64,000 nucleotides of DNA, from contig CM059432.1 in assembly GCA_030390025.1 (NCBI GenBank), positions 35,280,001 to 35,344,000 of the forward strand. Direction: 5' to 3'. The notes below the pieces were generated by a model. The model searched no databases. It was not told where the DNA came from and saw nothing but the letters and a program-made list of their open reading frames with translations. Each line of letters starts with the position of its first letter. Position 1 is the first letter of the stretch. Shown piece by piece: positions 2,093 to 64,000 of this stretch. The position numbers and the translations under genes are program-made. The stretch is from Squalus acanthias (taxonomy: Eukaryota).

Positions 2093-2250
2093 AGTGAACC
2101 AAACTGACACATTGAGATAAAAGAAAGAACCATGATGTGGGGGGAGGAGGAGAGAATGATCCCACATTGCCAATGTATGATATTTAACCAATAATAATCC
2201 AAATAAATTAATTTTGATTCTCATGTTTTTACAGAATGGAAACTCTTTAC

Positions 2251-18034: not shown

Positions 18035-19802
18035 TTGTTTTCTTTTTATTCGTTTATGGGATGTGGGCATTGCTGGCAAGGCCAGCATTTATTGCCCATC
18101 CCGAATTGCCCTTGAGAAGGTGGTGGTGAGCCACCTTCTTGAACCGCTGCAGTCCGTGTGGTGAAGGTACTCCCACAGTGCTGTTAGGTAGGGAGTTCCA
18201 GGATTTTGACCCAGCGACGATGAAGGATCGGCGATATATTTCCAAGTCAGAATGGTGTGTGACTTGGAGGGGAACTTGGAGGTGGTGATGTTCCCATGCG
18301 CCTGCTGCCCTTGTCCTTCTAGGTGGAAGAGGTCACGGGTTTGGGAGGTGCTGCCGAAGAAGCCTTGGCGAGTTGCTGCAGTGCATCTTGTAGATAGTAC
18401 ACACTGCAACCACAGTGCGCTGCTGGTGCAGGGAGTGAATTTTTAAGGTGGTGGATGGGGTGCCAATCAAGCGGGCTGCTTTGTCCAGAATGGTGTCGAG
18501 CTTCTTGAGTGTTGTTGGAGCTGCACTCATCCAGGCAAGTGGAGAGTATTCCATCACACTCCTTACTTGTGCCTTGTAGATGCTGGAAAGGCTTTGGGGA
18601 GTCAGGAGGTGAGACACTCGCCACAGAATACCTAGCCTCTGACCTGCTCTTGTTGCCACAGTATTTATGTGGCTGGTCCAGTTAAGTTTCTGGTCAATGG
18701 TGACCCTCAGGATGTTGATGGTGAGGGATTTGGTGATGGTAATGCCGTTGAATGTCAAGGGGCGGTGGTTAGACTCTCGCTTGTTGGAGATAGTCATTGC
18801 CTGGCACTTGTGTGGCGCGAATGTTACCTGCCACTTATCAGCCCAAGCCTGAACGTCGTCCAGGTCTTGTTGCATGCAGACATGGACTGCTTCATTATCT
18901 GAGGAGTTGTGAATGTCACTGAACACTGTGCAGTCATCAGCGAACATCCCCATTTCTGACCTTCTGTTGGAGGGAAGGTCATTGATGAAGCAGCTGAAGA
19001 TGGTTGGGCCTAGGACACTGCCCTGAGGAACTCCTGCAGCGATGTCCTGGGGCTGAGATGATTGATCTTCAACCACCACAACCATCTTCCTTTGTGCTAG
19101 GTAGCACTCCAGCCAGTGGAGAGTTTTCCCTCCGATTCCCATTGACTTCAGTTTTACTAGGGCTCCTTGATGCCACACTCGATCAAATGCTGCCTTGATG
19201 TCAAGGGCAGTCTCTCTCACCTCACCTCACCTCTGGAATTCAGCTCCTTTATCCATGTTTGGACCAAGGATGTAATGAGGTCGGGAGCCAAGTGGTCTTG
19301 GCAGAACCCAAACTGGGCATCAGTGAACAGATTATTGGTGAGTAAGTGCCGCTTGATAGCACTGTCGATGACACCTTCCATCACTTTGCTGATGATTGAG
19401 AGTAGACTGACGGGGCGGTAATTGGCCGGATTGGATTTGTCCTGTTTTTTGTGGACAGGACATACTTGGGCAGTTCTCCACATTGTCAGATAGATGCCAG
19501 TGTTGTAGCTGCACTGGAGCAGCTTGGCTAGAGGCGCTGGAGCACAAGTCTTCAGCAGGACAGCCGGGATGTTGTCGGGGCCCACAGCCTTTGCTATATC
19601 GAGTGCGCTCAGCCGTTCTTGATATCACGTGGAGTGAATCAAATTGGCTAAAGACTGGCTTCTGTGATGATGGGGTCCTCAGGAGAAGGCCGATATGGAT
19701 CATCCACTCGGCACTTCTGGCTGAAGATGGTTGCAAACGCTTCAGCCTTGTCTTTTGCACTCATGTGCTGGGCTCCACCATCATTGAGGATGGGGATATT
19801 CA
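18035..19802 (-). mobile_element. 5'-truncated copy of the same LINE family (RT and 3' end)
   Basis: ORFs 18333-19220 and 19217-19585 are nearly identical to those at 55062-55957 and 60979-62558; same 3' tail. Confidence 0.88.
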
Positions 19803-23178: not shown

Positions 23179-23574
23179 CTTATAAATAAGGATAAACTAT
23201 TGCCACTGGCAGTAACCAGAATACACAGATTTAAGATAATTAGCAAAAGAACCAGAGGGGAGATGAAGAGAAATGTTTTTACTGATACCAGCTTTTTATT
23301 TCCAAAATTAAAAAAATTGAATTGAAATTCTCAAACAGCCATGAATTGAACTCACATTCACTATAATTATCCAATCAGGCCTTTATTAGATTACTGGTCC
23401 AGTGACATAACCAACACACTACCATACCCACAAATACCAACCCTGCTCCTTTTAAAGTTGTCAATTCACCCAAATCGACTCTCCTCTCTGGCAGTCAGTT
23501 CCACATCCACCATCCAGTGGGGGGAGAAAAAAGTTTTTCTAATGCGCGAGGCTTGTGAATTTTCTACATATCCT

Positions 23575-24515: not shown

Positions 24516-26384
24516 AAAAAGGGAGTGGTTGAGATCATTGCATCTTTTAAGGGAAAATCAGATAAATATATGAAGCAGAGGACTCCTGCAGTTAATTAGA
24601 AGCTATTTGCTGTTGCTGGGGATGTTTCTCAGTAAAGTGCACTTCTAAAAAAATGTGACACAAAGATTTGCATGTGTGACACCTGAGTCTGAAAGATACA
24701 TCTCAAAACTTCTTTATATATACCAGTAAATTACCTGCAGCCCTGCTGACAGGAAGTCAGACGATGCCCTATGTTATAAGAACAAGGGCATTATACCATG
24801 TAACACACAGTGGATTGTTCTGCTGCTAAAGTGCAGGTGTATGTCCCTTTAAGGATACAAAGTCTTGTTGTTGTTGTTAAGTAAACACTGGGTGAGTTCT
24901 TTCAAAGGTCAACTGTTATTCATAACTCCAACTATTTTTGTGGGAAGGTGAATTAAGAGCTTGCAGATGTTGTGGATCCAATATTTTCTGTTCCTGGAGA
25001 GAATGAAAGGGGAAGTTAGAAGAATCTTTTTTCAGACACAGGGTTGTTAGAAAGTGGAATGCTTTGCCACAAGGCGCTATTGAGGCAGAGGATAAGTATT
25101 TGAAAAGGAAGGATTTGTAGAAAGGGCAAGATAATGGGATTGGAGTTGAATAGCTCACACTGGCACAGGCAAGGTAGGTCGAAGGCCACCTTCTGTACTG
25201 TAATCTCTCGTTCTGTGCTTCAAAATAAGCATGACTTATGTGTAAGTTAGTACGGTATTTCATCAAAAAGATTTACTATCAAGATAACGAACATAGGAAT
25301 TGCTGAACAAAAAAGACCACGGTCCATCGAGTTCGCCTTCTGCCATCCTGGTAGTCACATTATACAATGATAATGGAGTTGTTGACTAACCATAGCAATC
25401 AATATCTTATCAATTAGTCTAGAACAGACCCAGACATGAGGCGTGGAAAATCCCAGTCGTGGGGAGCTTTCGAACCACAAGTCCAAAGTCACCTGTTCCT
25501 CCCAATTTACCACGTTATGTCTCAAATTGCTCATATACTGTATCCCAAAATATTACTTTCTGAAAGAAATCTATCTAATTTGCATTTGATTGAATCAATA
25601 CTATCTTCTTCCACCGTCTCCCGAGGGAGCAAGTTCCATAGATTGACCATTCGCTCACTGAAGTAGTTTTTCCGTAGATTACTTTTGAATTTACCCCCTG
25701 CAAACGCAGGCCATGTCCTCTGGTTCTACTGTTCCGGACAAGGTGAAATAACTTGTCATGGTCTACATTATAGGAAGCAAGCAGTGAAACTCCATGAAAG
25801 TATCGCCGGCATTCCCTGTCCTTCACTGTACACTTTGGTACACAACCCCATCCCCTACCTCCCCCTTACCATATTTTATGATTGATGCACACCCTCTACC
25901 CTTCCCCCTCCTGCAACAAGGACAGATGGCCAGTTAATCACAGGGAATGGGTGGGGGAGTCGGAGAATGCGATCTGTTTACACTCTCGGATAACACAGTG
26001 CTGCCAATTTTGTTCAGGCAATCTGGTTTTAGAAAGGGCCGCTGCAGTGGGTTGGCTGCAGCACGGGAAGGGTGGGGGAGGGGCTCCAGATGGCACAGCC
26101 ATAATAGACAGGCTACAGGGTATAAGCAGATGGTATCGCCCCTGCTGTCGGCCCCTGCAATTGTCTGGGTACCGATTTAAACAATGCAGCAATGTATTCA
26201 TCAGCTGACAAAGAGCCATTTAGAAACCTGAAAATGTCTCCAAGTATTGAATAAACTGTAAAATAACAATTTGTTGGGAAAAAAAACAAATGGGTAGTGA
26301 TAAACCAGAGAGAGGCTGTTTATCTTCACAATAACAAATCCTGCTGGGTTTTTCTAACTCACTTTTCCCAGCTAATCTTCTCCC

Positions 26385-27080
26385 TTTGCTCTCAGGATGT
26401 GGGCTACGCTGGCAAAGTTATGTTTATTGCCCATCCCTTGTTACAGTGGTGGACTTTTTTCAGCACAGAGGTTGTCTTACAACTGCGTGGTTTGCTCTGC
26501 CACTTCAGAGGGCAGCAAGGGTCAACCACATAGTGCAGAACTGGAGTCACGTGCAAACTTGGTAGGGATGGCAGTCCCCTTCGCTGAAGGACATTAGTGA
26601 CCTAGTTGCATTTTTACGACAATCTGGCAGCTTCATAGTTATTTTTCTGGTGCCAGCTCATAAATTACCAGATTTATTGAATTCGCAGCACAGAAACAGG
26701 CCTTTTGGCCCAACTGGTCTGTGCCAGTGTTTATACTCCATTCAAGATGACTCCCACTCTAATTACCTCTATCCCACCCTGCCCGCATATCCTTAAATTC
26801 CCTTCTCCCTCACGCATGCACCAAGCCTCCCCTTAAATGCATCAATGCTCTCTGCTCAACCACTCCATGTGGCAGCAAGTTCCACATTTTCACCACTCTG
26901 TGTAAAGACATTTCCTCCTAAATTCTTTATTTGATCCATTAGTGGCTATCTGATATTTATGCCCCCTTCTTCTGACTCACCCACAAGTGGAAACAGTTTC
27001 TCAATGTCCAATTCTGATTCTACCATGGTGGGATTTGAACTCAGAATCTGTAGGCTGCTAGTCCAGTTCCATAACCAGGC
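26385..27080 (-). mobile_element. 5'UTR+3'tail SINE copy split by a CR1 3' fragment (~26686-27005)
   Basis: Tail and body at 26390-26685; head (gggatttgaactc...gctagtccag...ataacca) at ~27010-27080; CR1 3' sequence between them. Confidence 0.65.
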
Positions 27081-38481: not shown

Positions 38482-38810
38482 GGGGCATGGTAGCCTCGTG
38501 GTTATGGTGCTGGACTAGCAACACAGATAGTTGTGAGTTCTAAATCCCACTACAGCAAGCTGTGAAAATAAATCTGGTAATTTGTGGGCAGGCGCCAGAA
38601 AATGACTGAAATCTGCCAGATTGTTGTAAAAATCTAACTGGTTCACTAATGTCCTTCAGGGAAGAGAACTTGCCACCCCTACCTGGCCTGGTCCTATGTG
38701 TGACTCCAGTTTCACACTACATGGCTGACTCTAAATGCCCTCAAGCAACCTAGGGTGGGCAATAAATATATCCTTGCCAATGTTGCCCACATTTCAAAAG
38801 CAAAAAAAGA
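38482..38810 (+). mobile_element. Another copy of the 5'UTR+3'tail SINE
   Basis: ggcatggtagcctcgtggttatgg...gagttctaaatccc...ctggttcactaatgtccttcagggaag...gcaacctagggtgggcaataaat...gcccacat. Confidence 0.75.
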
Positions 38811-39289
38811 GAAAATTCTCACATTACTTTTGACATGTGAGGCCCTGAAAGGGTCAGAGGCCTGGCAAGAGCCAGCGCCTTCTAGAAGCCATTGCAAAGC
38901 ACTGTCTGAATCGTGTTTGCCGTCATATAATGTATTATCCTGCAATGTATTACCACAGGATTTTAAATCAATCACGTTAAAAAGCTTTTTAGATCCAGTT
39001 ATCTGAAATGGAGATATCCTTACTGTTCTTAATTGGTGTATAAAGCAAGTTAGACATTTGGTCTCCTCTCTCTCTCCACCACTCACTCCTTCCCCCTCCC
39101 CTCACTTTCTGGTTGCTCCTTGTAATTAGCTGGTAAAGTGCGGTTGTACTGTACAAAGCAACATGGATAGAGTTGCAAAGGTTGGTGTTGTACTGCCACA
39201 CCATCCTCTCCAATTGTTTTTTTTGAGATTCTGTGGCTGTTTCTGGACCCAAGGCAAGTGCAGACTGTCAGTCTACCTTATTGGTTTTC

Positions 39290-48400: not shown

Positions 48401-49427
48401 AATATATAATTAATCCCTGCCTGGGTAATAACTGAAAGAGATGACTCAATTGGAAAGGAAACTGCAAACGTCAGAAATCGGAAATAAAATATTTTTAAAT
48501 GCTCAGCAGGTCTGCCAGCGACTGGAAAGAGGCGAGCTGTGTTAACATTTCAGGCAGGCATCCTTCGCCTGACGCACACTCGAAAAATTCATCCGCCTTT
48601 TCAGACTCTGTACATCCTTCGCACTTTTTTTTTTAATTAGAAAGCCGTCGGGCAGAATTTCTCAGATAGTGAGTGCAAGACATGTAGGACAATACAGGAA
48701 AGGCAGGGGCTGAGCTTGGGCCTGCTTGTGTCAGAGGGGTTGTACCTGTTCATGTGTGAACAGGGGGCAGTGGGTTATTTCTGTTCTATTCAAACCCTCA
48801 TTATAAAATGTTACCAACAACAACAACTTGCATTTATATAGCGCCTCTAACATAGTAAAACTTCCCAAGGAGCTTCACAGGAGCGTATCAATCAAAGCAG
48901 GGGAGGCCAATATTTATCCCTCAACCAATACCGCTAAAACAGATTCTCTGGTCATTTATCTCAGTACTGTTTGTGGGATCTTACTGTGCGTGAATTGGTG
49001 TTTACAACAGTGACTTCACTTCAAAATTACATCATTAGCTGTGAAGCACTTTAGGATATCGTATGGTCATGAAAGGTGCTATGTAAATGCAAGTTCATTC
49101 TTATTAATTCAGAAAAACAAAACAAAATGGATTCTGTTAGTTACTAGCTCCATTCCCTCCCACTCCAACATCCACCCTCGCTACTTACCTCATATCCAAA
49201 ATCTATGTTTCTTTTTCCTCCTTTTTCTCCCCTCCTCCCAGGGTTATGGCTGAATGGCACTGGCATCTGCCCAGTACATTGCCTATTTCTCACGAGGCAG
49301 ACTGCATGATGAGTGTCAGTGGGATATTTGACCATGGGGGGTGTCCAGCATCTGTGAGTGTGCATTTCTAATGGGGATCATTGGATAGGAACCCTGCCTG
49401 ATTTTTCTACCCCTGGGAACTTCCTTT

Positions 49428-49790
49428 TTTTAAAAATTAATTCTCAGAATGTGGATGTCGCTGAAAAGGCTGGTATTTATTGCCCATCCCTAGTTGCCCT
49501 TGAGAAGGTGATGATAGGCCTTCTTCTTGAACCGCTGAAGTCGATGTGGCGAAGGTGCTCCGATAATACTGTTAGGTTATGAGTTCCAGGATTTTGACCT
49601 AGCGACGATAAAGGAATGGCAATATATGTCCAAGTCAGGATGTGACTTGGAGGGGAACTTGGAGGTGATGGTGTTTCCATGCGCCTGTTGTCCTTCCCCT
49701 TTGAGGTAATGGAAGTCATGGGATTGAGAGGTGCTGCCGAAGAAACCTAGGTGAGTTGATACAGTGTATCCTATAGATTGTGCACACTAT
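49428..49790 (-). mobile_element. Older 3' fragment of the same LINE family
   Basis: Diverged match to 18050-18410 (tail tttattgcccatccctagttgcccttgagaaggtg). Confidence 0.75.
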
Positions 49791-49982
49791 AAGACTCAGT
49801 ACCATGCTAGCCACCAGGAAGTTTCCAACCAAATTATGTTTGTTAAATAGAACCATTGTTTTGAGGGTTTAAAATTCTTCTATTTTTCCCTTGTATAGGT
49901 CAGTACCTCCTGCAGCTGAGAGGTAGAGTGGCAGGTCCAAGGTTTCTGCCAATTACTCCCTTCAGCTGACCACTGGAGGATA

Positions 49983-50342
49983 TTTTTTTTCGTTCTCAGG
50001 ATGTGGGCGTTGTTGATAAGGCTGGCATTTATTGCCCATCCCTAGTTGCCCAGGTTTGATACAACTGAGTGGCTTGCTAGGCCACTTAGAAGGCAGTTAG
50101 GAGTCGACCATATGTGTGGGGCTGGAGTCACATATAGGCCAGACCAAGTAGGGACATCAGGTTTCCTTCTCTAAAGGACATCAGTGAACCAGTTGAGTTT
50201 TTACAACAATCCAATAGTTTCATGGTCACTTTTACTAATACCAGAAACTGAATTCAAATTTTCAAACTGCCATGGTGAGCTTTGACCTCACGTTCCCCGG
50301 ATTATTAGTCCAGTCGCATAATCACTGCACTACCATACCCTT
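49983..50342 (-). mobile_element. tRNA-headed SINE consisting of the 5' UTR + 3' tail of the single-ORF LINE
   Basis: Reverse complement reads gggtatggtagtgcagtg..ctggactaataatcc..., follows the LINE 5' UTR to ccactcagttgtatcaaac, then joins directly to the LINE 3' tail gggcaactagggatgggcaataaatg...gcccacatcc. Confidence 0.8.
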
Positions 50343-50629
50343 GTGGCAAAACAGCCCAAGAACAACTCACCATCGGATTCCCAAACACCCCATCACGAAG
50401 GTGACTTGCCTCCAATCAGAGCTTCCACTTCAGCGGCCTGGCTGAGGTTAGCATCGACCAGAAATCAAACCTGGGACCTTCCAGGTCCATATGACTCTGG
50501 ACCACACTCTGCTCCCTTTAGGTGCTACTTCCAATCCAATACAAACAGTCCTCAATCCCAAGACAGTTCTACCAAATGGTTGGGCATCATTGCTTCAAAA
50601 CCATTTCCTGATGTTGTTGTAGGGTCTTT

Positions 50630-51532: not shown

Positions 51533-53738
51533 TTTGTCTTTTTCTTTCCTTTCATTTCCTCCTTTAGCTCTGATTCCCAAATGCATAGTAAATGGTGGTT
51601 CTTTGGGCTACTATCTCATCAGCTGGCCTTGGAGTTCTGCCAAGTCAGGCACCATTTCCTATGCCCTGCCCCGCGCTGTATGATGTACTAGAGAATGAGG
51701 AATTGGGGATTTTGTGGGGAAAGCAAAAGGACCGCAGCCTGGAGACAACATCTCCAAACCCCCAAGGAGAAAGTCACCCCATCCAACGTCAAAACTTCTG
51801 TCATTGTTAAATTGAGAAACCAAGGTGAAGGTTCAAGTGCAGGAAGAGAGTAGGAGAGAAGACATAGTAACTCAGGAACTGTGAAAAGGTGAAAATGGGT
51901 GAGGAAAGCGAGCAGTTCTAGTTTTTTAAGGCCTGGGAATGAATGAGCTGTGTGCAATTCAGTTCAGCACAGTGAGGCTGTAAAATATATTGATTTCATT
52001 TTTAGAAGAGTTTTCTTTCTTTAATTTTATATATTCTTGGAATATTTATGCTTATTAAGTTCAGCGAATGGAACATTCTTAATTTTTCTCACCCAATGTT
52101 AGCACAGAACATAAGAACATAAGAAATAGGAGCAGGAGTCGGCCATTTTGCCCTTCGAGCCTGCTCCGCCATTCAATACGATCATGGCTGATCTTCTACC
52201 TCATCTCCACTTTCCTGAACTATCCCCATATCCCTTGATTCCCTTAATATTCAAAAATCTATCGATCTCTATCTTGAATATACTCAACAACGAGCCTCCA
52301 CAGCCCTCTAGGGTAGAGAATTCCAAAGATTCACCACCCTCTGAGTGAAGAAATTTCTCCTCATCTTTGTCCTAAATGGCCGACCCCTTATTCTGAGACT
52401 GTGACCCCTGGTTCTAGACTCCCCAGCCAGGGGAAACACCCTCCTTGCATCTACCTTGTCAAGCGCTCTAAGAATTTTGTATGTTTCAATGAGATCACCT
52501 CTCATTCTTCTAAACTCTAGAATAGAGAATATAGGCCTAGTCTACTCAATCTGTCCTCATAGGACAATCCCCCCATCCCAGGAACCAGTCTGGTGAACCT
52601 TCGTTGCACTCCCTCTGTAGCAAGTATATCCTTCCTTAGGTAAGGAGACCAAAACTTTGCACAATACTCCAGGTGTGGTCTCACCAGGGCCCTATATAAT
52701 TGCAATAAGACGTCTTTACTCTTATACTCAAATCCTCTTGTAATAAAGGCCAACATACCATTTGCTTTCCTAATTGCTTGCTGTACCTGCATGTTAACTA
52801 TCAGTGATTTGTGTACAAGGACACCCAGGTCCCTCTGAACACCAACATTTCCTAATCTCTCACCATTTAAAAAATAATCTGCTTTTCTATTTTTCCTATC
52901 AAAGTGGATAACTTCACAAGGGAACGGAAGTGTAGTGGTAATGTCACTGGGCTAGTAATCCAGAGGCCTCGACTAAAGATCCAGAGATGTGAGTTCAAAT
53001 CCCACCACGGCAGCTGGGGAATTTAAATTAAGTTAATTAAATAAATCTGGAATAATTACTAGTATCAGTAATGGTAACCATGAAACTATCGGATTGTCAT
53101 AAAAACCCATCTGGTTCACTAATGTCCTTTAGGGAAGGAAATCTGCCGTCCTTACCAGGTCTGGCCTATCTGTGACTCCTGACCCACAGCAATGTGGTTG
53201 ACTCTTAACTGACCCTCTGAAATGGCCCAGCAAGCCACTCAGTTGTAACAAACTGCTACAAAAAACAATAAAAAGAATGAAACCGGACGGACCGCCCGGC
53301 ATCGACCTCCGCATGGCAACGGCACACCCAGCCCAGTCGACCCTGCAAAGTCCTCTTCACCAACACCTGGGGCCTTGTGCTAAAATTGGGAGAGCTGTTC
53401 CATAGACTAGTCAAGCAACAACCTGACATAGTCATACTCACAGAATCATACCTTTCAGCCAATGTCCCAAACTCCTCCATCACCATCCATGGGTATGTCC
53501 TGTCCCACCGGCAGGACAGACCCACCAGGGGTGGCGGCACAGTGGTATACAGTTGGGAAGGAGTGGCCCTATGAAGTCTCATGGCTTCAGGTTAAGCATG
53601 GGCAAGGAAACCTCCTGCTGATTACCACCTAGCGCCCTCCCTCAGCTGATGAATCACTATTCCTCCATGTTGAACACCACTTGGATGAAGCACTGAGAGC
53701 AGCAAGGGCAGAGAATGTACTCTGGGTGGGGGACTTCA

Positions 53739-54015
53739 TAAAATTATAGAAAGTTACAGCATAGAAGGAGGCCATTTCGGCCCATCGTGCCCGCGCCGGC
53801 CAACAAAGAGCTAACCAGCCTAATCCCACTTCCCAGCTCTTGGTCCATAGCCCTGCAGGCTACCACATCCAAGTACTTTTTAAATGTGGTTAGGGTTTCT
53901 GCCTCTACCACCCTTTCAGGCAGTGAGTTCCAGACCCCCACAACCCTCTGGGTGAAGAAATTTCTCCTCAAATCCCCTCTAAACGTTCTACCAATTACTT
54001 TAAATCTGTGCTTCA
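53739..54015 (-). mobile_element. Short CR1 3' fragment nested in the tRNA-headed LINE
   Basis: MRRNFFTQRVVGVWNSLPERVVEAE; host gacttca duplicated on both sides. Confidence 0.8.
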
Positions 54016-54713
54016 GACTTCAATGTCCATCACCAAGAGGGGCTCGGTAGCACCATTACTGACCGAGCTGGCTGAGTCCTGAAGGACGTAACTGCCAGTC
54101 TGGGCCTGTGACAGGTGGTGAAAGAACCAACATGAGGGAAAAACCTACTTGACCTCGTCCTCACCAATCTACCTGTTGCAGATGCATCTGTCCATGACAG
54201 TAATGGTAGCAGTGACCACCGCACAGTCATTGTAGAGACAAAGTCCCATCATCACACTGAGGACACCCTCCATCGTGTTGTGTGGCACTACCACCGTGCT
54301 AAATGGGATAGATTCAGAACAGATCTAGCAGCTCAAAACTGGGCATCCATGAGGCCTGTGGGCCATCAGCAGCAACAGAATTGTATTCCACCACAATCTG
54401 TAACCTCATGGCCCGGCATATCCCTCACTCTACCATTACCATCAAGCCAGGGGACCAACCCTGGTTCAATAAGGAGTGTAGAAGAGCATACCAGGAGCAG
54501 CACAAATGAGGTGCCAACCTGGGGAAGCTGCAAAACAGGACTACATGCATGCTAAAAAGGAGAAGCAGTATGCTATAGACAGAGCTAAGCGATCCCACAA
54601 TCAACAGATCAGATCAAAGCTCTGCAGTCCTACCACATCCAGTCGTGAATGGTGGTGAACCATTAAACAACTAACAGGGAGGAGGAGGCTCCATGACTAT
54701 CCCCATCCTCAAT

Positions 54714-54859
54714 AGAAACATAGAAAAATAGGAGCAGGAGTAGGCCATTCGGCCCTTCAAGCCTGCTCCGCCATTCAATATGATCATGGCTGATCCTCTA
54801 TCTCAATATCATATTCCCGCTCTCTCCCCATACCCCTTGATGCCTTTTGTGCCTATTGT
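54714..54859 (-). mobile_element. CR1 3' UTR fragment nested in the tRNA-headed LINE
   Basis: agaaacatagaaaaataggagcaggagtaggccattcggccc..., the CR1 tail seen throughout the window. Confidence 0.8.
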
Positions 54860-56122
54860 CAATGATGGTAGAGCCCAGCACGTGAGTGCAAAAGACAAGG
54901 TTGAAGCGTTTGCAACCATCTTCAGCCAGAAGTGCCGAGTGGATGATTCATATTGGCCTCCTCCTGAGGTCCCCACCATCACAGAAGCCAGTCTTCAGCC
55001 AATTTGATTCACTCCACATGATATCAAGAAATGGCTCAGCGCACTGGATACAGCAAAGGCTATGGGCACTGACAACATCCCGGCTATCGTGCTGAAGACT
55101 TGTGCTCCAGAACTAGCTGTGCCTCTAGTGAAGCTGTTCCAGTACAGCTACAACACTGGCATCTATCCGACAATGTGGAAAACTGCCCAGGTATGTCCTG
55201 CCCACAAAAAGCAGGACAAATCCAACCCGGCCAATTACCGCCCCATCAGTCTACTCTCAATCATCAGCAAAGTGATGGAAGGTGTCATCGACAGTGCTAT
55301 CAAGCGGCACTTACTCACCAATAACCTGCTCACTGATGCCCAGTTTGGGTTCCGCCAAGACCACTCGGCTCCCGACCTCATTACAGCCAGAGGTGAGGTG
55401 AGAGTGACTGCCCTTGACATCAAGGCAGCATTTGACCGAGTCTGGTATGAAGGAGCCCTAGTAAAACTGAAGTCAATGGGAATCGGGGGGGAAAACTCGA
55501 CTGGCTGGAGTCATACCTAGCACAAAGGAAGATGGTTGTGGTGATTGAAGATCAATCATCACAGCCCCAGGACATCACTGCAGGAGTTCCTCAGGGCAGT
55601 GTCCTAGGCCCAACAATCTTCAGCTGCTTCATCAATGACCTTCCCTCCAACATAAGGTCAAAAATGGGAATGTTTGCTGATGACTGCACAGTGTTCAGTG
55701 CCATTCACAACTCCTCAGATAATGAAGCAGTCCATGCCCGCATGCAGCAAAACCTGGATGACGTTCAGGCTTGGGCTGATAAGTGGCAGGTAACATTCAC
55801 GCCACAGAAGTGCCAGGCAATGACTATCTCCAACAAGCGAGAGTCTAACCCCACCATCAACATCCTGGGGGTCACCATTGACCAGAAACTTAACTGGACC
55901 AGCCACATAAGTACTGTGACGACAAGAGCAGGTCAGAGGCTAGGTATTACTTCCTGACTCCCCAAAGCCTTTCTAGCATCTACAAGGCACAAGTAAGGAG
56001 TGTGATGGAATACTCTCCACTTGCCTGGATGAGTGCAGCTCCAACAACACTCAAGAACCTCGACACCATCCAGGACAAAGCAGCCTGCTTGATTGGCACC
56101 CCATCTACCACCTTAAACATTC

Positions 56123-58095
56123 TCTTCTTCTCTTCGGCAGTCCCTGTGAACTGAGGATGACTTGCTTCCACATTAAAAATGAGTTCTCCGGTGACTGATG
56201 AGTCCAATGCGAGACCTACAGTCTCTGTCACAGGTGGGGCAGATGGTGGTTGAAGGGGCGGGTGGGTGGGGTGCTTGGGTTGACGTGCGCTCCTTGTGTT
56301 GCTTGCGCTTGGTTTCCACTTGCTCCCGGCGAAGAGACTCGAGGTGTTCGGCGCCTTCCCGGATGCTTCTCCTCTACTTTGTGCGGTCTTGGGCCAGGGA
56401 TTCCCATGTGTCATTGGGGATGTTGCACTTTTTCAAGGAGGCTTTGAGGGTGTCCTTGAAGCGTTTCCTTTGCCCACCTGGGGCTCTCTTGCCGTGCCGG
56501 AGCTCCGAGTAGAGCGCATGTTTTGGGAGTCTCGTATCGAGCATGCGGACGATGTGACCCGTCTATCGGAGCTGATCGAGCGTGGTCAAAGCTTCGATGC
56601 TGGGGATGTTGGCCTGAGCGAGAACACTGACGTTGATGCGCCTATCCTGCCAATGGGTTTACAGGATCTTGCGGAGACAGCGTTGGTGGTACCTCTCCAG
56701 TGCTTTGAGGTGCCTGCTGTACATGGTCCATGTCTCTGAGGCATACAGCAGGGCGGGTATCACTGCTGCTCTGTAGACCATGAGCTTAGTGCCGGGTTTG
56801 AGGTGCTGGTCTTCAAACACTCTCTTCCTCAGGCGACCGAAGGCTGCACTGGCACACTGAAGGCGGTGTTGGACTTCGTCATCGACGTCTGCCCTTGTTG
56901 ACAGTAGGCTCCCGAGGTATGGAAAGTGGTCCACGTTGTCCAAGGCCTTGTCGTGGATTTTGATTATTGGGGGGCTGTACTGTGTGGTGGGGGCAGGTTG
57001 GTAGAGGACCTTTGTCTTACGGATGTTTAGTGTAAGGCCCATGCTCTCGTACGCTTCGGTGAATGTGTTGACGATGGTTTGGAGTTCGACCTCCGAGTGA
57101 GCGCAGACACAAGCGTCGTCTGCATACTGTAAATCGACGACAGAGGATGGGACGACCTTGGATCTGGACTGGAGGTGACGGAGGTTGAACAGTTTCCCGT
57201 TAGTTCTGTAAATTAGTTCCACTCCAGCAGGGAGCTTACTGAGGGTGAGATGGCGCATTGCAGCAAGGAAGATCGAGAAGAGCGTTAGTGCAATGACACA
57301 GCTTTGCTTGACCCCGGTCCATACGTGAATTGGGTCTGTGGTGGAACCGTTGGTCAGGATCACGGCTTGCATGTCATCGTGAAGCAGGCGGAGGATAGTG
57401 ACAAACTTTTGAGGGCAGCTGATTTGAGGAGGACACTCCATAATCCCTCACGGTTGACAGTGTCGAAGGCCTTTGTGAGATCAAAGAAGACCATGTACAG
57501 CGGTTGGTGCTGTTCCCTGCATTTCTCTTGTAATTGACGCGCGGTGAAGATCATGTCCATTGTGCCCCTTAGTGGGTGGAATCCGCATTGTGACTCTGGG
57601 AGGAGCTCTTCGGCCACTGGGAGAAGGCAATTGAGGAGGATTCTTGCGATGACTTTCCCTGTGGCAGACAGCAGGGAAACTCCTCTGTAATTACCGCAGT
57701 CGGACTTGTCACCTTTCTTGAAGATGGTCAAAATTACGGCGCCACTGAGATCCCCTGGCATGCTCTCCTCCTTCCAGATAAGAGAAATTAGTTCATGAAT
57801 TCGCGCCAATAGTGCTTCTCCGCTATGCTTTAGTGCCTCGGCAGGGATTCCATCTGCTCCTGAGGCCTTGTTGTTCTTCAGTTGTCGGATGGCCTTTCCA
57901 ACCTCATGCTGGGCTGGGGTTGTGCTGAGATGGTGGCGGGTAGCATGCTGCGGGATGGAGTTGAAGACAGAGTCTCGGTTAAGGAGATCTTCGAAGTGCT
58001 CCTTCCAGCGGGCACTGACTGCCTCTCTGTCCTTGATGAGTACCTCTCCGTTCTTGGCCCGCAGTGGGGTAGGACCTTGGGTGCTTGGGCGATAG
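56123..58095 (-). mobile_element. RTE-clade (BovB-like) LINE, 5'-truncated, inserted in the tRNA-headed LINE
   Basis: ORFs 57360-57809 (KGDKSDCGNYRGVSLLS, LPESQCGF) and 56659-57441 (LQYADD). (GAA)-type 3' tail at 56123-56133. Host attc duplicated at 56119-56122 and 58096-58099. Confidence 0.88.
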
Positions 58096-60066
58096 ATTCA
58101 CTCCCTCCACCACCGGCGTACCGTGGCTGCAGTGTGTACCATCTACAAGATGCACTGCAGCAACTCACCAAGGTTTCTTCAGCAGCACCTCCCAAACCCG
58201 TGACCTCTTTCACCTAGAAGGACAAGGGCAGCAGGCGCATGGGAACACCACCACCTCCAAGTTCCCCTCCAAGTCACACACCATCCTGACTTAGAAGTAT
58301 ATCGCTGATCCTTTATCGGTGCTGGGTCAAAATCCTGGAACTCCCTACCTAACAGCACTGTGGGAGTACCTTCACCACACGGAGTGCAGCGGTTCAAGAA
58401 GGCGGCTCACCACCATCTTCTCGAGGGCAATTAGGGATGGGCAATAAATGCTGGCCTTGCCAGCGACGCCCACATTCCATAAACAAATTAAAAAATAGAT
58501 AATTCTCCACATTATATTCCATTTGCCATGTTCTTGCCCACTTACTTAGCCTGTCTATATCCCCTTGAAGCCTCCTTGCATCCTCCTCACAACTTACATT
58601 CCCACCCAGCTTTGTATCCTCAGCAAAGTTGGATATATTACATTTGGTCCCCTCATCCAAATCATCGATGTAGATTGTGAATAGCTGAGGCCCAAGCACT
58701 GATCCTTGCGGTACCCCACTAGTTACAGCCTGCCAACCCGAAAATGACCCATTTATTCTTGCTCTCTGTTTTCTGTCTGTTAACCAATTCTCAATCCATG
58801 CTAGTATATTACCCCAATCCCAGGAGCCCTAATTTAGTTTAATAACCTCTTGTTTGGCACCTTATCGAATGCCTTCTGAAAATCCAAATACACCACATTA
58901 TCTATTCTGCTAGTTACCACCTCAAAAAACTCTAATAGATTTGTCAAACACGATTTCCCTTTCATAAATCCGTGTTGACTCTGCCCAATCCTATTATTAT
59001 TTTCTAAGTGCCCTGATACCACGTCCTTAATAATAGATTCCAGCAAACTGGTCTGTAGTTCCCCGTTTTTTTCTCTCCCTCCTTTCTTAAATAGTGGGGT
59101 TACATTTGCTACCTTCCAATCCGCGGGAACCGTTCTAGAATCTATGGAATTTTGAATAATGACAACCAATGCATCCACTATCTCTATAGCCAACTCTTTC
59201 AAAACCCTAGGATGTAGGCCATCAGGTCCAGGGGATTTATCGGCTTTCAGTCCCATTAATTTCTCCAGTACTACTTTTTTACGAATACTAATTTCTTTCA
59301 GTTCCTCATTCTCACTCGACCCTTGGTTCTCCACTATTTCCGGGAAGATTTTTGCGTCTTCGTCCGTGAAGACAAACACAAAGTATTTGTTTAATTTTTC
59401 TGCCATTTCCTTATTCCCAATTATAATTTCTCCCGTCTCAGCCTGTAAGGGACCTACATTTACTTTGGCTTATATTTTCCTTTTTACATACCTATAGAAG
59501 CTTTTACAGTCTGTTTTTATGTCTCTCGCTAGTTTACTCTCATTCTATTTTCCCTTTCATCATCAATTTCTTGGTCCTCCTTTGCTGAATTCTAAAATCC
59601 TCCCAATCCTCAGGCTTACTACTGTTTTTGGCAACATTATAAGCTTCTTCCTTTGATCTAATACTATCTTTAACTTCTCTTGTTAGCCACGGTTGAACCA
59701 CTTTTCCTGTGGGGTTTTTGTGTCTTAAAGGAATGTATATTTGTTGTAAATTATGTATTAATTCTTTAAATGCTAGTCATTGCTCGTCCACTGTCATACC
59801 TTTTAATGTAGTTTCCCAATCTACCTTAGACAACTCGCCCCTCATACCTACGTAGTTTGCTTTGTTTAGATTTAAGACTCTAGTTTCGGATTTACCTAAG
59901 TCACTTTCAAACTCAATATAAAATTCTATCATATTATGGTTACTCTTTCCTAAAGGCCCCTTTACTACAAGGTTATTAATTAACTCTTTCTCGTTGCACA
60001 ATACTAGATCTAAAGTAGCCTGTTCCCTAGTTGGTTCCTCAACATACTGATCTAGAAAACTATTAG

Positions 60067-60162
60067 TTACAGCATGGGTTAGATAGAGAGTAAAGCTCCC
60101 TCTACACTGTCACATCAAACACTCCGAGGACAGGTACAGCACGGGTTAGATCCCTCTACACT
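60067..60162. repeat. Remnant of a ~67-bp tandem satellite unit (1.4 copies)
   Basis: tacagcatgggttagat...ctccctctacactg...tacagcacgggttagat. Confidence 0.5.
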
Positions 60163-60912: not shown

Positions 60913-63900
60913 TTTCTTTTTTTAATTTGTTCATGGGATGTGGGCGTCGCTGGCAATGCCAGCATTTATTGCCCATCCCTAGTTGCCCTTGAGAAGGTGG
61001 TGGTGAGCCGCCTCCTTAAACCGCTGCAGTCTGTGTGGTGAAGGTACTCCCACAGTGCTGTTAGGTAGGGAGTTCCAGGATTTTGACCCAGCGATGATGA
61101 AGGATTGGCAATATACTTCTAAGTCAGAATGGTGTGTGACTTGGAGGGGAACTTGGAGGTGGTGGTGTTCCCATTCGCCTGCTGCCCTTGTCTTTCTAGG
61201 TGGAAGAGGTCGCGGGTTTGGGAGGTGCTGCCAAAGAAGCCTTGGCGAGTTGCTGCAGTGCATCCTGTAGATGGTACACACTGCAGCCACGGTACACCGG
61301 TGGTGGAGGGAGTGAATGTTTAAGGTGGTGGATGGGGTGCCAATCAAGCGGGCTGCTTTGTCCTGGATGGTGTCGAGCTTCTTGAGTGTTGTTGGAGCTG
61401 CACTCATCCAGGCAAGTGGAGAGTATTCCATCACACTCCTTACTTGTGCCTTGTAGATGGTGGAAAGGCTTTGGGGACTCAAGAGGTGAGACACTCGCCT
61501 CAGAATACCTAGCCTCTGACCTTTTCTTGATGCCACAGTATTTATGTGGCTGGTCCAGTTAAGTTTCTGGTTAATGGTGACCCCCAGGATGTTGATAGTG
61601 GGGGATTCGGCGATGGTAATGCCAATGAATGTCAAGGGGAGGTGGTTAGACTCTCGCTTGTTGGAGATAGTCATTGCCTGGCACTTCTGTGGCGTGAATG
61701 TTACGCGCCACTTATCAGCCCAAGCCTGAATGTCATCCAGGTCTTGTTGCATGTGGGCATGGACTTCTTCATTATCTGTGGAGTTGCGAATGGCGCTGAA
61801 CACTGTGCAGTTATCAGCGAACATCCCCATTTCTGACCTTATGTTGGAGGGAAGGTCATTGATTAAGCAGCTGAAGATGGTTGGGCCTAGGACACTGCCC
61901 TGAGGAACTCCTGCAGCGATGTCCTGGGGCTGTGATGATTGACCTTCAACCACCACAACCATCTTCCTTTGTGCTTGGTATGACTCCAGCCAATAGAGAG
62001 TTTTCCCCCCGATTCCCATTGACTTCAGTTTTACTAGGGCTCCTTGATGCCAGACTCGGTCAAATGCTGCCTTGATGTCACTCTCACCTCACCTCTGGAA
62101 TTCAGCTCCTTTGTCCATGTTTGGACCAAGGCTGTAATGAGGTCGGGAGCAGAGTGGTCTTGGCGGAACCCAAACTGGGCATCAGTGAGCAGGTTATTGG
62201 TGAGTAAGTGCCGCTTGATAGCACTGTCGATGACACCTTCCATCACTTTGCTGATGATTGAGAGTAGACTGATGGGGCAGTAATTGGCCGGGTTGGATTT
62301 GTCCTGCTTTTTGTGGACAGGACATACCTGGGCAGTTTTCCACATTGTCGGATAGATGCCAGTGTTGTAGCTGTACTGGAACAGCTTGGCTAGAGGCACG
62401 GCTAGTTCTGGAGCACAAGTCTTCAGCACGATAGCCGGGATGTTGTCGGGGCCCATAGCCTTTGCTGTATCCAGTGAATTCAATTGGCTGAAGAATGGCT
62501 TCTGTAATGGTGGGGACCTCGGGAGTAGGCCGATATGGATCAGCCTTGTCTTTTGCACTCACGTGCTGGGCTCCACCATCATTGAGGATGGGGATATTCT
62601 TGGAGCCTCCTCCTCCCGTTAGTTGTTTAACGGTCCACCACCATTCACGACTGAATGTGACAGGACTGCAGAGCTTTGATCTGATCCGTTGATTGTGGGA
62701 TCGCTTAGCCCTGTCTATAGCATGCTGCTTCCACTTTTTAGCATGCATGTAGTCCTGTGTTGCAGCTTCCCCAGGTTGGCACCTCATTTTTAGGTACGCC
62801 TGATGCTGCTCCTGTACACTCGTTGTTGAACCAGGGTTGGTAATGGTACAGTGAGGGATATGCCGGGCCATGAGGTTACAGATTGTGGTGGAATACAATT
62901 CTGCTGCTGGCCCACAGCGCCTCATGGATGCCCAGTTTTGAGCTGCTAGATCTGTTCTGAATCTATCCAATTTAGTACAGTGGTAGTGCCACACAACACG
63001 ATGGAGGGGGTCCTCAGTGTGAAGACGGGACTTCGTCTCCACAATGACTGTGCAGTGGTCACAGCTACCAATACTGTCATGGATAGATGCATCTGCGACA
63101 GGTAGATTGGTGAGGACGAGGTCAAGTAGGTTTTTCCCTCGTGTTGGTTTCTCTCACCACCTGTCACAGGCCCAGACTGGCAGCTATTGTCCTTCAGTAC
63201 TCAGCCACTCTTGGTGATGGACATTGAAGTCCCCACCCAGAGTACATTCTGTGCCCTTGCTACTCTCAGTGCTTCTTCCAAGTGGTGTTCAACATGGTGG
63301 AGTACTGATTCATCAGCTGAGGGAGGGCAGTAGGTGGTAATCAGCAGGTTGTTTCCTTGCCCATGCTTGACCTGAAGCCATGAGACTTCATGGGGTCTGG
63401 AGTCAATGTTGAGGACTCCCAGGGCCACTCCTTCCCGACTGTATACCACTGTGCCACCGGTGGGATAGGACATACCCAGGGATGGTGATGGAGGAGTTCG
63501 GGACATTGGCTGAAAGGTATGATTCTGTGAGTATGACTATGGCAGGCTGTTGCTTGACTAGTCTGTGGGACAGCTCTCCCAATTTTGGCACAAGTCCCCA
63601 GATGTTGGTGAGGAGGACTTTGCAGGGTTGACTGGGCTGGGTGTGCGTTGTCGTGTCCGTAGCCGGTGCCGAGGTTGATGCCGCGTGGTCCGTCCCGTTT
63701 CATTCTTATTATTTTGTAGCGGTTAGTTACAACTGAGTGACTTGCTGGGCCATTAAGTCACATATAGGCCAGACCAAGTAAGGATGGCAGATTTCTTTCC
63801 CTAAAGGACATTAGTGAACCAGATGGGTTTTTACGACAATCCGATAGTTTCATGGTTACCATTACTGATACTAGCTTTTTATTCCAGATTTACTTAATTA

Positions 63901-64000
63901 ACTGAATTTAAATTCCCCAGCTGCCGTGGTGGGATTTGAACTCACATCTACTGGATCATTAGTCCAGGCCTCTGGATTACTAGCCCAGTGACATTACCAC
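60913..64000 (-). mobile_element. Second copy of the tRNA-headed single-ORF LINE (head cut by the window edge)
   Basis: Same head (reverse complement of 63925-64000) and same ATG context (63703, MKRDGP vs MKPDGP). APE/RT ORF fragments 63201-63506, 62194-63042, 62034-62558 and 60979-62019, the last ending HHLLKGN*. Confidence 0.88.

What the first reader, a model, noticed from the sequence alone, without database searches (positions are those of the whole stretch)
52920..53460. LINE with a tRNA-derived Pol III promoter head and no ORF1: candidate autonomous 'SINE-LINE'
Seen in sequence: the element begins at its insertion junction in a CR1 (~52919) with a tRNA-like head. The head has an A-box-like tgtagtgg, a stem-loop ctggg-CTAGTAA-tccag (same 7-nt loop as the tRNA-Thr(AGT) anticodon loop, recalled) and a B box gagttcaaatcc. 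About 355 nt later an A-rich leader leads to an ATG (53277) that opens directly into the APE endonuclease and RT, leaving no room for ORF1. An independent copy in the opposite orientation (63590-64000) has the same head, leader and ATG, so this is a family structure and not a one-off template-switch chimera. Established: CR1/L2-group LINEs normally use Pol II internal promoters and encode ORF1, whereas tRNA heads define non-autonomous SINEs. Inference: a protein-coding retrotransposon transcribed by Pol III, which would need cap-independent translation. I recall scattered precedents for tRNA-headed LINEs in other clades (Ingi, some RTE), so novelty needs checking.
Basis: partly seen in the sequence, partly recalled or inferred. 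Interest (0 to 1): 0.88.

Follow-up and report, generated by a model that had tools for sequence, protein, structure and literature searches.

The report
Shark LINE carrying a SINE head
A family of enzyme-coding jumping genes in a shark-type genome has a complete tRNA-derived SINE head and body as its front end, which bears on how SINEs are born and on whether a protein-coding retrotransposon can run on an RNA polymerase III promoter.

Summary
The structure is real and family-wide. A ~3.3-kb LINE starts at window 52920 with a tRNA-derived head (A and B boxes) and about 230 nt of SINE body. It then runs into one APE+RT reading frame and ends in a hairpin plus A-run. Sampling the genome by the ORF start alone, 29 of 29 other copies have this leader in line upstream. 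Upstream flanks are unrelated. Leader and ORF have the same age within each copy. Partner SINEs are the same 5' module joined to the last ~70-125 nt of the LINE.

One detail of the finding is wrong. The ATG at 53277 is out of frame with the APE-RT frame, here and in the commonest state of the family (25 of 41). That frame has no in-frame ATG for 286 codons.

Lack of ORF1 is not unusual: with the A tail it fits elasmobranch Zenon (CR1 group).

Pol III use is not shown. In its favour:
- LINE and SINE share the same first base, 8 nt before the A box.
- The family majority has no T4 on the sense strand.
- T runs and TTT codons are avoided, unlike other LINEs in the window.

Six literature searches found no SINE-headed LINE family. 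Repbase and Dfam were not available.

The parts
52920..53019 (+). tRNA-derived head of LINE copy 1. The A-box stretch is at 52928-52938; it has two changes here, and the family majority matches the recalled consensus TRGCNNAGTGG. The anticodon-arm-like hairpin is duplicated in tandem. The B-box stretch is at 52991-53002.
   Evidence: Among 41 head-bearing copies the A box is intact in 28 and the B box in 34.
53020..53253 (+). SINE body, reused as the LINE 5' UTR. The same sequence occurs in separate SINE copies in the window.
53254..53280 (+). A-rich linker holding the ATG at 53277-53279. This ATG is out of frame with the APE-RT frame.
53281..53739 (+). Start of the APE-RT frame of copy 1 (endonuclease N-terminus), up to the first nested insertion.
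54016..54713 (+). LINE copy 1, second piece (end of the APE region and the linker). Foreign insertions lie at 53740-54015 and 54714-54858.
54859..56125 (+). LINE copy 1, third piece (reverse transcriptase). It is followed by a foreign RT-bearing LINE fragment on the minus strand at 56126-58095.
58096..58497 (+). LINE copy 1, 3' end: last codons, 3' hairpin and A-run.
60913..64000 (-). LINE copy 2, from head to tail. Its first 15 nt are cut off by the window end. The 3' hairpin lies at about 60925-60980.
   Evidence: Hairpin fold -25.7 kcal/mol, z = -3.18.
18039..19801 (-). LINE copy 3, 5'-truncated, with no SINE module next to it.
49421..49788 (-). Fragment of the LINE 3' end.
49960..50345 (-). 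Older partner SINE: head without the arm duplication, body, and about 70 nt of the LINE 3' tail with an A-run.
26381..26700 (-). Partner SINE copy (body and LINE-type tail), 5'-incomplete.
38500..38815 (+). Partner SINE copy (part of the head, body and LINE-type tail).
23271..23425 (-). Fragment of a SINE head of the same kind.

Best explanation
What it is. This is a family of ~3.3-kb non-LTR retrotransposons of the CR1 group, most like Zenon. Each has one APE+RT reading frame of about 970 codons, no ORF1, a 3' hairpin and an A tail. Its whole 5' UTR is a tRNA-derived SINE module of about 335 nt: a head with A and B boxes, plus the body.

Shown:
- The head-bearing unit is what was copied. The junction is constant, flanks are unrelated, and module and ORF have the same age in each copy.
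- Truncation points run through the module.
- The partner SINEs are the same module joined to the LINE's last ~70-125 nt. Long and short elements therefore share both ends.

Inferred, about 45% likely:
- The module is the element's internal promoter. RNA starts at the SINE's own start site, 8 nt before the A box, by RNA polymerase III.
- The polymerase can run through because the sense strand of the family majority has no T4 terminator.
- The resulting uncapped RNA serves as the template for target-primed reverse transcription through the 3' hairpin.
- The frame without an ATG is translated unconventionally. Candidates are the near-cognate ACG four codons into the frame, or cap-independent entry.

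Inferred origin. A Zenon-type LINE took over the head and body of its own partner SINE by template switching or recombination. The older SINE forms lack features that all LINE heads have. Internal deletion of the fused LINE later gave new SINE forms.
For: Family structure:
- 39 of 39 non-self places scored with head+leader+ORF start hold all three in line.
- Sampling by the ORF start alone, 29 of 29 have the leader. 15 reach position 1-3, 6 start at position 14-60 and 8 are truncated inside the leader at 93-351. None has another 5' end.
- Upstream flanks are unrelated, apart from one duplicated pair. 18 of 30 copies start with the same GGGA-type octamer.
- 16 of 20 fetched regions hold head and tail 3130-3433 nt apart.
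- Pfam finds Exo_endo_phos_2, Exo_endo_phos and RVT_1, and nothing else.
- The majority rule of the 16 copies has 973 stop-free codons.

One unit:
- Divergence from the majority is 4.0% in the module and 3.9-4.9% in the ORF. The per-copy values correlate: Spearman 0.60, P = 6e-5, n = 39.

Shared ends with SINEs. Joints between the tail and module positions 295, 305 and 327 are also seen in public contigs, including a DNA-like run.

Pol III:
- The A and B boxes match the recalled consensus in the majority, and are intact in 28 and 34 of 41 copies.
- LINE and SINE copies begin at the same GGG.
- 10 of 16 full-length copies have no T4+ on the sense strand, and the majority has none, against 13 A4+ runs.
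- In 39 copies over 1.9 kb there are 12 T4+ runs, none shared by 3 or more copies, against 421 A4+ runs.
- T runs of 3 or more: 5 observed, 11.1 expected from synonymous-codon shuffles (P = 0.006). A, C and G runs are as expected. Seven other LINE ORFs of the window show 69 observed against 68.5 expected.
- Phe codons TTT:TTC are 3:15 in the family and 35:36 in those controls, Fisher P = 0.016.

Direction of capture:
- The older SINE at 49960-50345 lacks the 21-nt arm duplication and the AT-rich linker that every LINE head examined has.
- Old SINE copies are 76-86% alike, whereas LINE copies lie 3-4.5% from their majority.
Against: - No RNA evidence. No run on record as RNA holds the stretch, and contigs cannot show RNA starts.
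- T4 absence alone is weak. The expected count is 1.8 by codon shuffle (P = 0.12), 1.5 by a first-order chain (P = 0.20) and 0.5 by a second-order chain (P = 0.60).
- Five T3 runs remain in the frame.
- Known natural Pol III products are far shorter than 3.3 kb. PMC10886601 (passages) treats Pol III processivity as the limit on SINE length.
- Uncapped RNAs are poor messengers.
- An AATAAA in the 3' hairpin loop and the A tail also fit Pol II transcripts.
- The tRNA likeness is below Rfam's threshold, and the head does not fold better than shuffles: z = -0.22.
- None of the 16 full-length copies has an intact frame, so the family may be extinct here.
- Variants in the head are only weakly linked to ORF variants: 0 of 72 site pairs at P < 0.001. 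Only module position 330 reaches P of 0.001-0.03.
- The direction of capture rests on five SINE copies, because no more genome sequence could be fetched.
Confidence: 0.45

Rival explanations
1. Same fused element, but transcribed by RNA polymerase II. The SINE-derived module acts as an ordinary internal Pol II promoter or 5' UTR. The A and B boxes are a relic, or serve only the short SINE derivatives.
For: - LINEs are held to be Pol II units (PMC10886601 and PMC5786205, passages).
- The element has an A tail and an AATAAA in its 3' hairpin loop.
- Its 3.3-kb length and coding capacity suit Pol II.
- T4 absence alone is not significant.
- In contigs of runs guessed to be RNA, word depth over the ORF interior is 10-150 times lower than over the head. 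In the DNA-like run the ratio is about 1.5-2. This fits expressed SINEs rather than full-length LINE RNA, though it is a poor measure.
Against: - It needs Pol II to start at exactly the same base as the SINE.
- It does not explain the T-specific run avoidance or the TTT-codon avoidance that other LINEs of the window lack.
- It does not explain why a capped mRNA would carry a main frame without an ATG behind out-of-frame ATGs.
Confidence: 0.33
2. A 'long SINE'. Pol III makes the head-bearing RNA, but only as a template. The protein comes in trans from other RNAs of the family, such as capped read-through transcripts, through recognition of the 3' hairpin. No cap-independent translation is then needed.
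For: - The same 3' hairpin is shared by LINE and SINEs, which shows that trans-mobilisation through this tail happens.
- The main frame has no ATG.
- All of the Pol III-compatible features listed above also apply.
Against: - The stop-free 973-codon majority shows that masters kept the frame intact while carrying the head. That is expected if their own RNA was translated.
- No separate head-less, capped master was found among 29 of 29 sampled copies.
Confidence: 0.1
3. The head is a processing signal, not a promoter. The element is co-transcribed with host genes, and a tRNA-processing enzyme (RNase P type) cuts at the first base of the tRNA-like head. This would parallel the HDV-like ribozymes at the 5' end of R2, RTE and L1Tc.
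For: - 5' ribozymes that free LINE RNA from co-transcripts are known in six clades (PMC5786205, passage).
- It would explain a fixed 5' end and an uncapped RNA with a frame lacking an ATG.
Against: - The Rfam alignment covers model positions 7-64 only, so there is no acceptor stem.
- The head folds no better than shuffles, and not as a cloverleaf: z = -0.22.
- What is kept is the two promoter boxes.
Confidence: 0.05
4. Not one element. Either the LINE inserts site-specifically into pre-existing SINE copies, or each copy is a fresh template-switch chimera, or the copies are segmental duplicates.
For: - Both elements share the RT that could switch templates.
- One pair of loci (L023 and L027) is indeed a duplicated segment.
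- Single tRNA/L1 chimeras are known in mammals (PMC13174262, passages).
Against: - The junction is constant in all copies examined.
- Module and ORF have equal and correlated divergence, whereas free SINE copies are 14-24% apart.
- 8 of 29 copies are truncated inside the module, as expected for one RNA.
- The SINE's tail is not present between module and ORF.
- The 5'-truncated copy at 18039-19801 has no SINE half beside it.
- Flanks are unrelated.
Confidence: 0.02

Closest known systems
Elasmobranch Zenon (CR1-Zenon) LINEs, as described in PMC13343379 (2026; passages read)
   Same: Both have a single ORF with APE and RT, no ORF1, and a poly-A tail that is unique among CR1-group elements. Both occur in sharks and rays. 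Lepidopteran Zenon is 3.3-3.5 kb (PMC6740152), close to the 3.3 kb found here.
   Different: That paper's text mentions no tRNA and no promoter (0 occurrences of either word), so no SINE head is described. It states that no elasmobranch Zenon has been deposited in a repeat library. I could not place the RT on a tree for lack of reference sequences. The best named hit outside cartilaginous fish is a moth protein, 41% identical over 174 aa.
Persaeus SIDE and its parent Zenon in Lepidoptera (PMC6740152, passages)
   Same: A short element made of the 5' end and the 3' end of a Zenon LINE, amplified alongside it. The L038-type SINE here has the same make-up: module positions 1-327 plus the last ~105 nt.
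   Different: Persaeus and its Zenon show no tRNA homology and no Pol III promoter. Here the shared 5' part is a tRNA-derived SINE head.
tRNA-derived SINEs with conserved bodies in cartilaginous fish: HE1 (V-SINE, partner HER1) and SacSINE1 (Deu-SINE). Source: table in PMC3747384 and passages in PMC2746220 and PMC5499810.
   Same: All have a tRNA head, a body and a tail copied from a partner LINE, and all are old and widespread in sharks and rays.
   Different: In those descriptions only the 3' tail is shared with the LINE. Whether the SINE here is HE1, SacSINE1 or another family was not tested: no reference sequence was available, and Ogiwara 1999 and 2002 are not held.
Bipartite non-autonomous LINEs and the 'SINE body = LINE 5' part' hypothesis (Kojima 2018, PMC5786205; abstract, discussion and passages)
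   Same: The middle part of a SINE equals the 5' part of its LINE, and the tail equals the LINE's 3' end.
   Different: That survey found this only for RTE and Vingi. There the small-RNA head sits on the SINE alone, and the LINE is taken to be Pol II-driven. Here a CR1-group LINE carries the head as well.
ingi/RIME and L1Tc/NARTc with the shared Pr77 5' module (abstracts of PMC1874656 and PMC3383444 in the listing)
   Same: The autonomous element and its short partner share a 5' module that works as an internal promoter and defines the RNA 5' end. The transcripts are poorly translatable.
   Different: Pr77 is a Pol II-dependent promoter plus an HDV-like ribozyme, not a tRNA-derived Pol III head. 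The hosts are trypanosomes.
Retrotransposons with small-RNA-derived Pol III promoters: Cassandra, Helenus and Ajax ('TRIMp3'; PMC10886601, passages)
   Same: A tRNA- or 5S-derived promoter is built into a retrotransposon other than a classical SINE. It probably arose by SINE insertion.
   Different: These are non-coding LTR elements of 0.3-1.3 kb. Their small size is ascribed to Pol III processivity. The element here codes for its own enzymes and is 3.3 kb.
Single tRNA/LINE-1 chimeric insertions in mammals (PMC13174262, passages)
   Same: tRNA sequence is joined to the 5' side of a LINE in one insertion event.
   Different: These are mostly half tRNAs in antisense, 21 loci in all, and they are dead ends. 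Here the head is full, in sense, and inherited by a whole family.

Membership tests
APE-type non-LTR retrotransposon (LINE) | One frame encoding an apurinic-type endonuclease followed by a reverse transcriptase | tested here: met
   Exo_endo_phos_2 (E 1e-13 to 3e-14), Exo_endo_phos and RVT_1 (E 7e-39) in frame pieces of three copies. The majority of 16 copies has 973 stop-free codons.
Zenon (CR1 group) | No ORF1 | tested here: met
   Only 328 nt precede the frame, and they are SINE head and body. No other domain was found.
Zenon (CR1 group) | Poly-A tail, said to be unique among CR1-group elements (PMC13343379) | tested here: met
   All 16 full-length copies end in an A-run. In 4 of them a T-run of 6-11 precedes it. 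Loose ends of public contigs show 13 or more A.
Zenon (CR1 group) | RT groups with Zenon references on a tree | not testable with these tools
   No Repbase or Dfam references were available. Indirect evidence only: 34% identity to the CR1 RT it is inserted in, and 41% over 174 aa to a moth protein.
tRNA-derived SINE head (type-2 Pol III promoter) | A box and B box matching the consensus at a workable distance, at the 5' end of the unit | tested here: met
   The majority head matches the recalled consensus TRGCNNAGTGG at positions 9-19, and GTTCRANNCC lies about 57 nt further on. The A box is intact in 28 of 41 copies, the B box in 34 and both in 23.
tRNA-derived SINE head (type-2 Pol III promoter) | Recognisable homology to tRNA | tested here: inconclusive
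   Rfam tRNA scores 18.4 and 26.3 bits against a gathering score of 29. The D, anticodon and T arms align, with a 22-nt insert, but the acceptor stem does not. ARAGORN of 16 copies and nothing in the window.
Pol III transcription unit | No T4 or longer terminator inside the transcribed part | tested here: met
   The majority of 16 copies has none in 3.3 kb, and 10 of 16 copies have none. The T4 runs that do occur are private to single copies. The statistical weight is modest.
Pol III transcription unit | Transcripts made by Pol III | not testable with these tools
   No holder on record as RNA, and only contigs were available.
SINE/LINE partnership | The SINE 3' tail is copied from the LINE 3' end | tested here: met
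   About 70 nt of tail are shared at 78-88% identity in the window's SINE copies, and about 105 nt in L038.
SIDE / bipartite non-autonomous LINE | Made only of the 5' and 3' parts of the parent LINE, with no small-RNA head | tested here: not met
   The make-up is bipartite, but the 5' part contains a tRNA-derived head. By definition it therefore counts as a SINE.
V-SINE (HE1) or DeuSINE (SacSINE1) | Central domain matching the V or the Deu consensus | not tested

The most novel reading that the evidence does not exclude
An autonomous retrotransposon lineage that lives on a Pol III promoter. Transcription would start at the tRNA-derived head and run 3.3 kb through a sense strand kept free of T-runs. 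The reading frame has no ATG and would be translated without a cap. The abundant tRNA-headed SINEs of elasmobranchs, with their 'conserved body', would be internal-deletion offspring of this LINE. In this lineage the puzzling SINE body would then simply be a LINE 5' UTR.
Probability: 0.25. Interest if true: 0.92.

Novelty: new variant of a known kind. Interest (0 to 1): 0.75.

Why it matters
- **The rule it bears on.** Textbook and current reviews draw a firm line: LINEs are Pol II units that code for their enzymes, and SINEs are short, non-coding Pol III units that share only the LINE's tail. Here a coding LINE family carries the whole SINE head and body, and it propagated that way.
- **The tests it opens.** This gives a natural system to ask whether Pol III can drive an autonomous element, and how a frame without an ATG on such an RNA is translated.
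- **SINE origins.** It also gives a concrete intermediate for two old questions: how SINEs are born, and where their conserved bodies come from. The two possible routes are LINE to SINE by internal deletion, or SINE to LINE by promoter capture.
- **Annotation.** Heads of this LINE will be masked as SINE copies. Zenon consensus sequences for sharks and rays should be checked for the head.

Tried and rejected
- **RNA evidence.** No RNA holder is listed for the stretch. I laid four runs, but they are contigs, and their kind (RNA) is only a guess. They show no starts or ends, so I give them no weight on expression.
- **Target-site duplications.** A search found nothing convincing in 10 of 16 copies, and only short or repeat-borne matches in the rest. 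This is uninformative for CR1-group elements.
- **Linkage of head variants with ORF variants.** The result was weak: 0 of 72 pairs at P < 0.001. I therefore used the per-copy age comparison instead.
- **Frameshift.** I read the overlap between the ATG frame and the APE frame by eye for a -1 slippery heptamer in the alignment. I saw none. No tool was run for this.
- **Reinitiation after the 48-codon upstream frame.** I rejected this because its stop lies downstream of the first endonuclease motif (my reading).
- **RNase P-type processing.** The head does not fold as a cloverleaf and no acceptor stem aligns.
- **Site-specific insertion into SINEs, repeated chimeras and segmental duplication.** All rejected.
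- **A tree of SINE and LINE heads to settle the direction of capture.** Not possible.
- **Earlier notes of this scan.** Nothing on this element.
- **Papers not held.** Ogiwara 2002 could not be opened by DOI or by PMC id. Ogiwara 1999 (HER1/HE1) was seen only as a reference. If HER1's 5' end was described there, it may bear on novelty.
Full report
**1. What lies at the coordinates.**

- At 52920 (+) a sequence starts abruptly inside the RT region of a minus-strand CR1-like element. The CR1 reading frame is split between the motifs NVEN (near 58500) and CEVIHF (near 52919).
- The first 100 nt look like a decayed tRNA. Rfam's tRNA model aligns the D arm, the anticodon arm (loop ctagtaa) and the T arm, with a 22-nt insert between them.
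- The score is 18.4 bits here and 26.3 bits in a better-kept copy, against a gathering score of 29. The acceptor stem does not align.
- ARAGORN finds no tRNA in the window, and one in 1 of 16 full-length copies.
- The 22-nt insert is a tandem duplicate of the anticodon-arm hairpin.
- In the family majority, positions 9-19 fit the A-box consensus and a stretch about 57 nt further on fits the B-box consensus. Both consensus motifs are recalled, not taken from a tool.
- The window copy has two changes in the A box.
- On its own the head folds no better than shuffled sequence, z = -0.22. It is a promoter-like relic, not a tRNA-like structure.

**2. It is a family structure.**

- The window's genome is 3.7 Gb. 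Related protein pieces sit in gene models of sharks and rays.
- Searched with 52920-53460, all 39 non-self places that were scored (of 8624 candidates) hold head, leader and ORF start in line at 90-93% identity.
- Their upstream flanks are unrelated, except for one duplicated pair (L023 and L027). 18 of 30 begin with the same GGGA-type octamer.
- To avoid choosing copies by the head, I searched again with the ORF start alone (53290-53738). All 29 non-self loci carry the leader in line upstream.
- Of those 29, 15 reach position 1-3, 6 start at position 14-60 and 8 are cut inside the leader at 93-351. None has a different 5' end.

**3. Anatomy.**

- Of 20 regions fetched, 16 hold both head and 3' end, 3130-3433 nt apart.
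- No copy has an intact frame. The longest stop-free piece is 737 codons.
- Pieces from three copies give Exo_endo_phos_2, Exo_endo_phos and RVT_1, and no other family.
- A majority rule of the 16 copies, computed but not printed, is 3324 nt long with one stop-free frame of 973 codons (329-3247). The copies lie 2.9-4.5% from it.
- The 3' end forms a hairpin (-25.7 kcal/mol, z = -3.18), followed by a short AT-rich stretch and an A-run. In 4 of 16 copies a T-run of 6-11 precedes the A-run.
- Target-site duplications are mostly not detectable.
- There is no ORF1. Only 328 nt precede the frame, and these are SINE sequence.

**4. Head and ORF moved as one unit.**

- Divergence from the majority is 4.0% in the module (positions 1-335), and 3.9% and 4.9% in two ORF stretches.
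- The per-copy values correlate: Spearman 0.60, P = 6e-5, n = 39.
- Free SINE copies are far older. They are 76-86% identical to the window's SINE copy.
- The truncation points running through the module and the constant junction add to this.
- Together these reject insertion into old SINEs, repeated chimeras and duplication.
- Linkage between head variants and ORF variants is weak: 0 of 72 pairs at P < 0.001, with only position 330 reaching P of 0.001-0.03. This suggests exchange between lineages.

**5. The partner SINEs.**

- The window holds SINE copies at 49960-50345 (-), 26381-26700 (-), 38500-38815 (+), and a head fragment at 23271-23425 (-).
- They consist of the same head and body, 73-83% identical to the LINE's, joined directly to the last ~70 nt of the LINE.
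- In locus L038 a younger form joins module positions 1-327 (88% identity) to the last ~105 nt.
- Public contigs show several such joints, between module positions 295, 305 or 327 and the tail. For one joint, 18 contigs come from a DNA-like run.
- LINE and SINE copies begin at the same GGG.
- The older SINE lacks the arm duplication and an AT-rich linker that all LINE heads examined have.
- The heads of the older LINE subfamily resemble the L038-type SINE.
- I therefore favour capture of an evolved SINE module by the LINE, with later deletions giving new SINE forms.

**6. The ATG.**

- The ATG at 53277 is not in the APE frame. In the window copy the APE frame opens at 53281, behind a TGA that overlaps the ATG.
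- Among 55 sequences, 41 have an ATG and the first endonuclease motif. The offset is 2 in 25 copies, 1 in 8 and 0 in 8. Four of the eight in-frame cases use a different ATG, created by CpG decay of an ACG.
- Eleven copies, mostly of the older subfamily, read ATA at that place.
- The distances 65, 71, 77 and 83 differ by multiples of six, within a hexamer-repeat stretch.
- In the majority, the APE-RT frame opens behind a conserved TAA and has no ATG for 286 codons.
- Candidates for its start are an ACG four codons in, read-through from an 8-codon upstream frame in the same register, or internal entry. None of these was tested.
- This fits an unconventional messenger, but it is unexplained.

**7. 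Is Pol III plausible?**

In favour:
- Boxes are intact in the majority (A box 28 of 41 copies, B box 34 of 41).
- The unit starts 8 nt before the A box, at the SINE's own first base.
- The sense strand has no T4+ in the majority and in 10 of 16 copies, against 13 A4+ runs.
- In 39 copies over 1.9 kb there are 12 T4+ runs, none shared by three or more copies, against 421 A4+ runs.
- By synonymous-codon shuffling of the majority frame, T runs of 3 or more number 5 against 11.1 expected (P = 0.006). A, C and G runs are as expected.
- Seven ORFs of other LINEs in the window (6372 nt) show 69 against 68.5 for T runs of 3 or more, and 14 against 16.8 for T4+.
- TTT:TTC is 3:15 in the family against 35:36 in those controls, Fisher P = 0.016.

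Against:
- T4 absence alone is not significant: P = 0.12 by codon shuffle, 0.20 by a first-order chain and 0.60 by a second-order chain.
- The 16 copies share ancestry, so they count as one sample.
- The 3.3-kb length, the coding role and the A tail suit Pol II.
- There are no RNA data.

I put Pol III at about 45% and Pol II at about 33%.

**8. Comparison with what is known.**

- PMC13343379 (passages) describes elasmobranch Zenon elements. They have a single ORF, no ORF1 and a poly-A tail unique in the CR1 group, and none is deposited in a repeat library. Its text has no occurrence of 'tRNA' or 'promoter'.
- PMC6740152 describes Zenon of 3.3-3.5 kb in Lepidoptera and its internally deleted derivative Persaeus. 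It states explicitly that there is no tRNA homology and no Pol III promoter.
- PMC11481361 finds CR1-Zenon tails on V, Core, Meta and Deu SINEs of bivalves.
- PMC5786205 finds LINE 5' parts in SINE bodies only for RTE and Vingi. It takes LINEs to be Pol II units.
- PMC10886601 says the same. It describes Pol III promoters only in short non-coding LTR elements.
- PMC13174262 reports single tRNA/L1 chimeras.
- Six full-text searches gave no LINE family with a tRNA-derived or SINE head.
- The limits are real. Repbase and Dfam were not available, Ogiwara 1999 and 2002 are not held, and I opened no supplementary files.

**9. Verdict.**

- The element is best filed as a Zenon-like CR1-group LINE with a captured SINE front end. 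That is a new variant of known kinds.
- Pol III use is an open hypothesis with some support.

Noticed in passing
window 2093-11497 (-): A stop-free frame of 3135 codons, rich in Ser, Glu and Asp, with no Pfam family. It holds one 84-nt tandem repeat at 4679-4867. It looks like a giant coding exon of a host gene for a disordered protein.
   Followed up: partly
window 53300-53330 and the same place in loci L002-L060: A hexamer-repeat stretch just behind the ATG is an indel hot spot. Its length varies between copies by 6, 12 or 18 nt. It reads as Arg-X repeats in the APE frame and as Gly-X repeats in the ATG frame.
   Followed up: partly
window 52308-52919 and 58500-60109 (-): The host CR1-like element is split cleanly by the LINE insertion inside its RT, between the motifs NVEN and CEVIHF. 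Its RT is 34% identical to that of the inserted LINE.
   Followed up: partly
window 53740-54015, 54714-54858, 56126-58095: Three later insertions lie inside LINE copy 1. The largest is a fragment of another RT-bearing LINE on the minus strand (RVT_1, E 5e-10).
   Followed up: partly
L023 and L027 (G000 contig C1, about 260.23 and 260.52 Mb): Two LINE copies with identical upstream flanks, on opposite strands about 285 kb apart. This is a segmental duplication, not two independent insertions.
   Followed up: no
3' ends of L062, L063, L069, L076: A T-run of variable length (6-11) sits between the 3' hairpin and the A-run in 4 of 16 copies. The others have 0-3 T. It could be slippage, or a remnant of a terminator followed by added A's.
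   Followed up: no
L061:1000-4501, public runs X1, X3, X9 against X17: In contigs of three runs guessed to be RNA, summed word depth over the head and the tail is 10-150 times that over the start of the ORF. In a DNA-like run the ratio is about 1.5-2. It hints that the short SINE forms are expressed, but it is a poor measure.
   Followed up: no
window 49421-50345 (-): An old SINE copy lies about 170 nt upstream of a 368-nt fragment of the LINE 3' end, on the same strand. It may be chance or a composite insertion.
   Followed up: no
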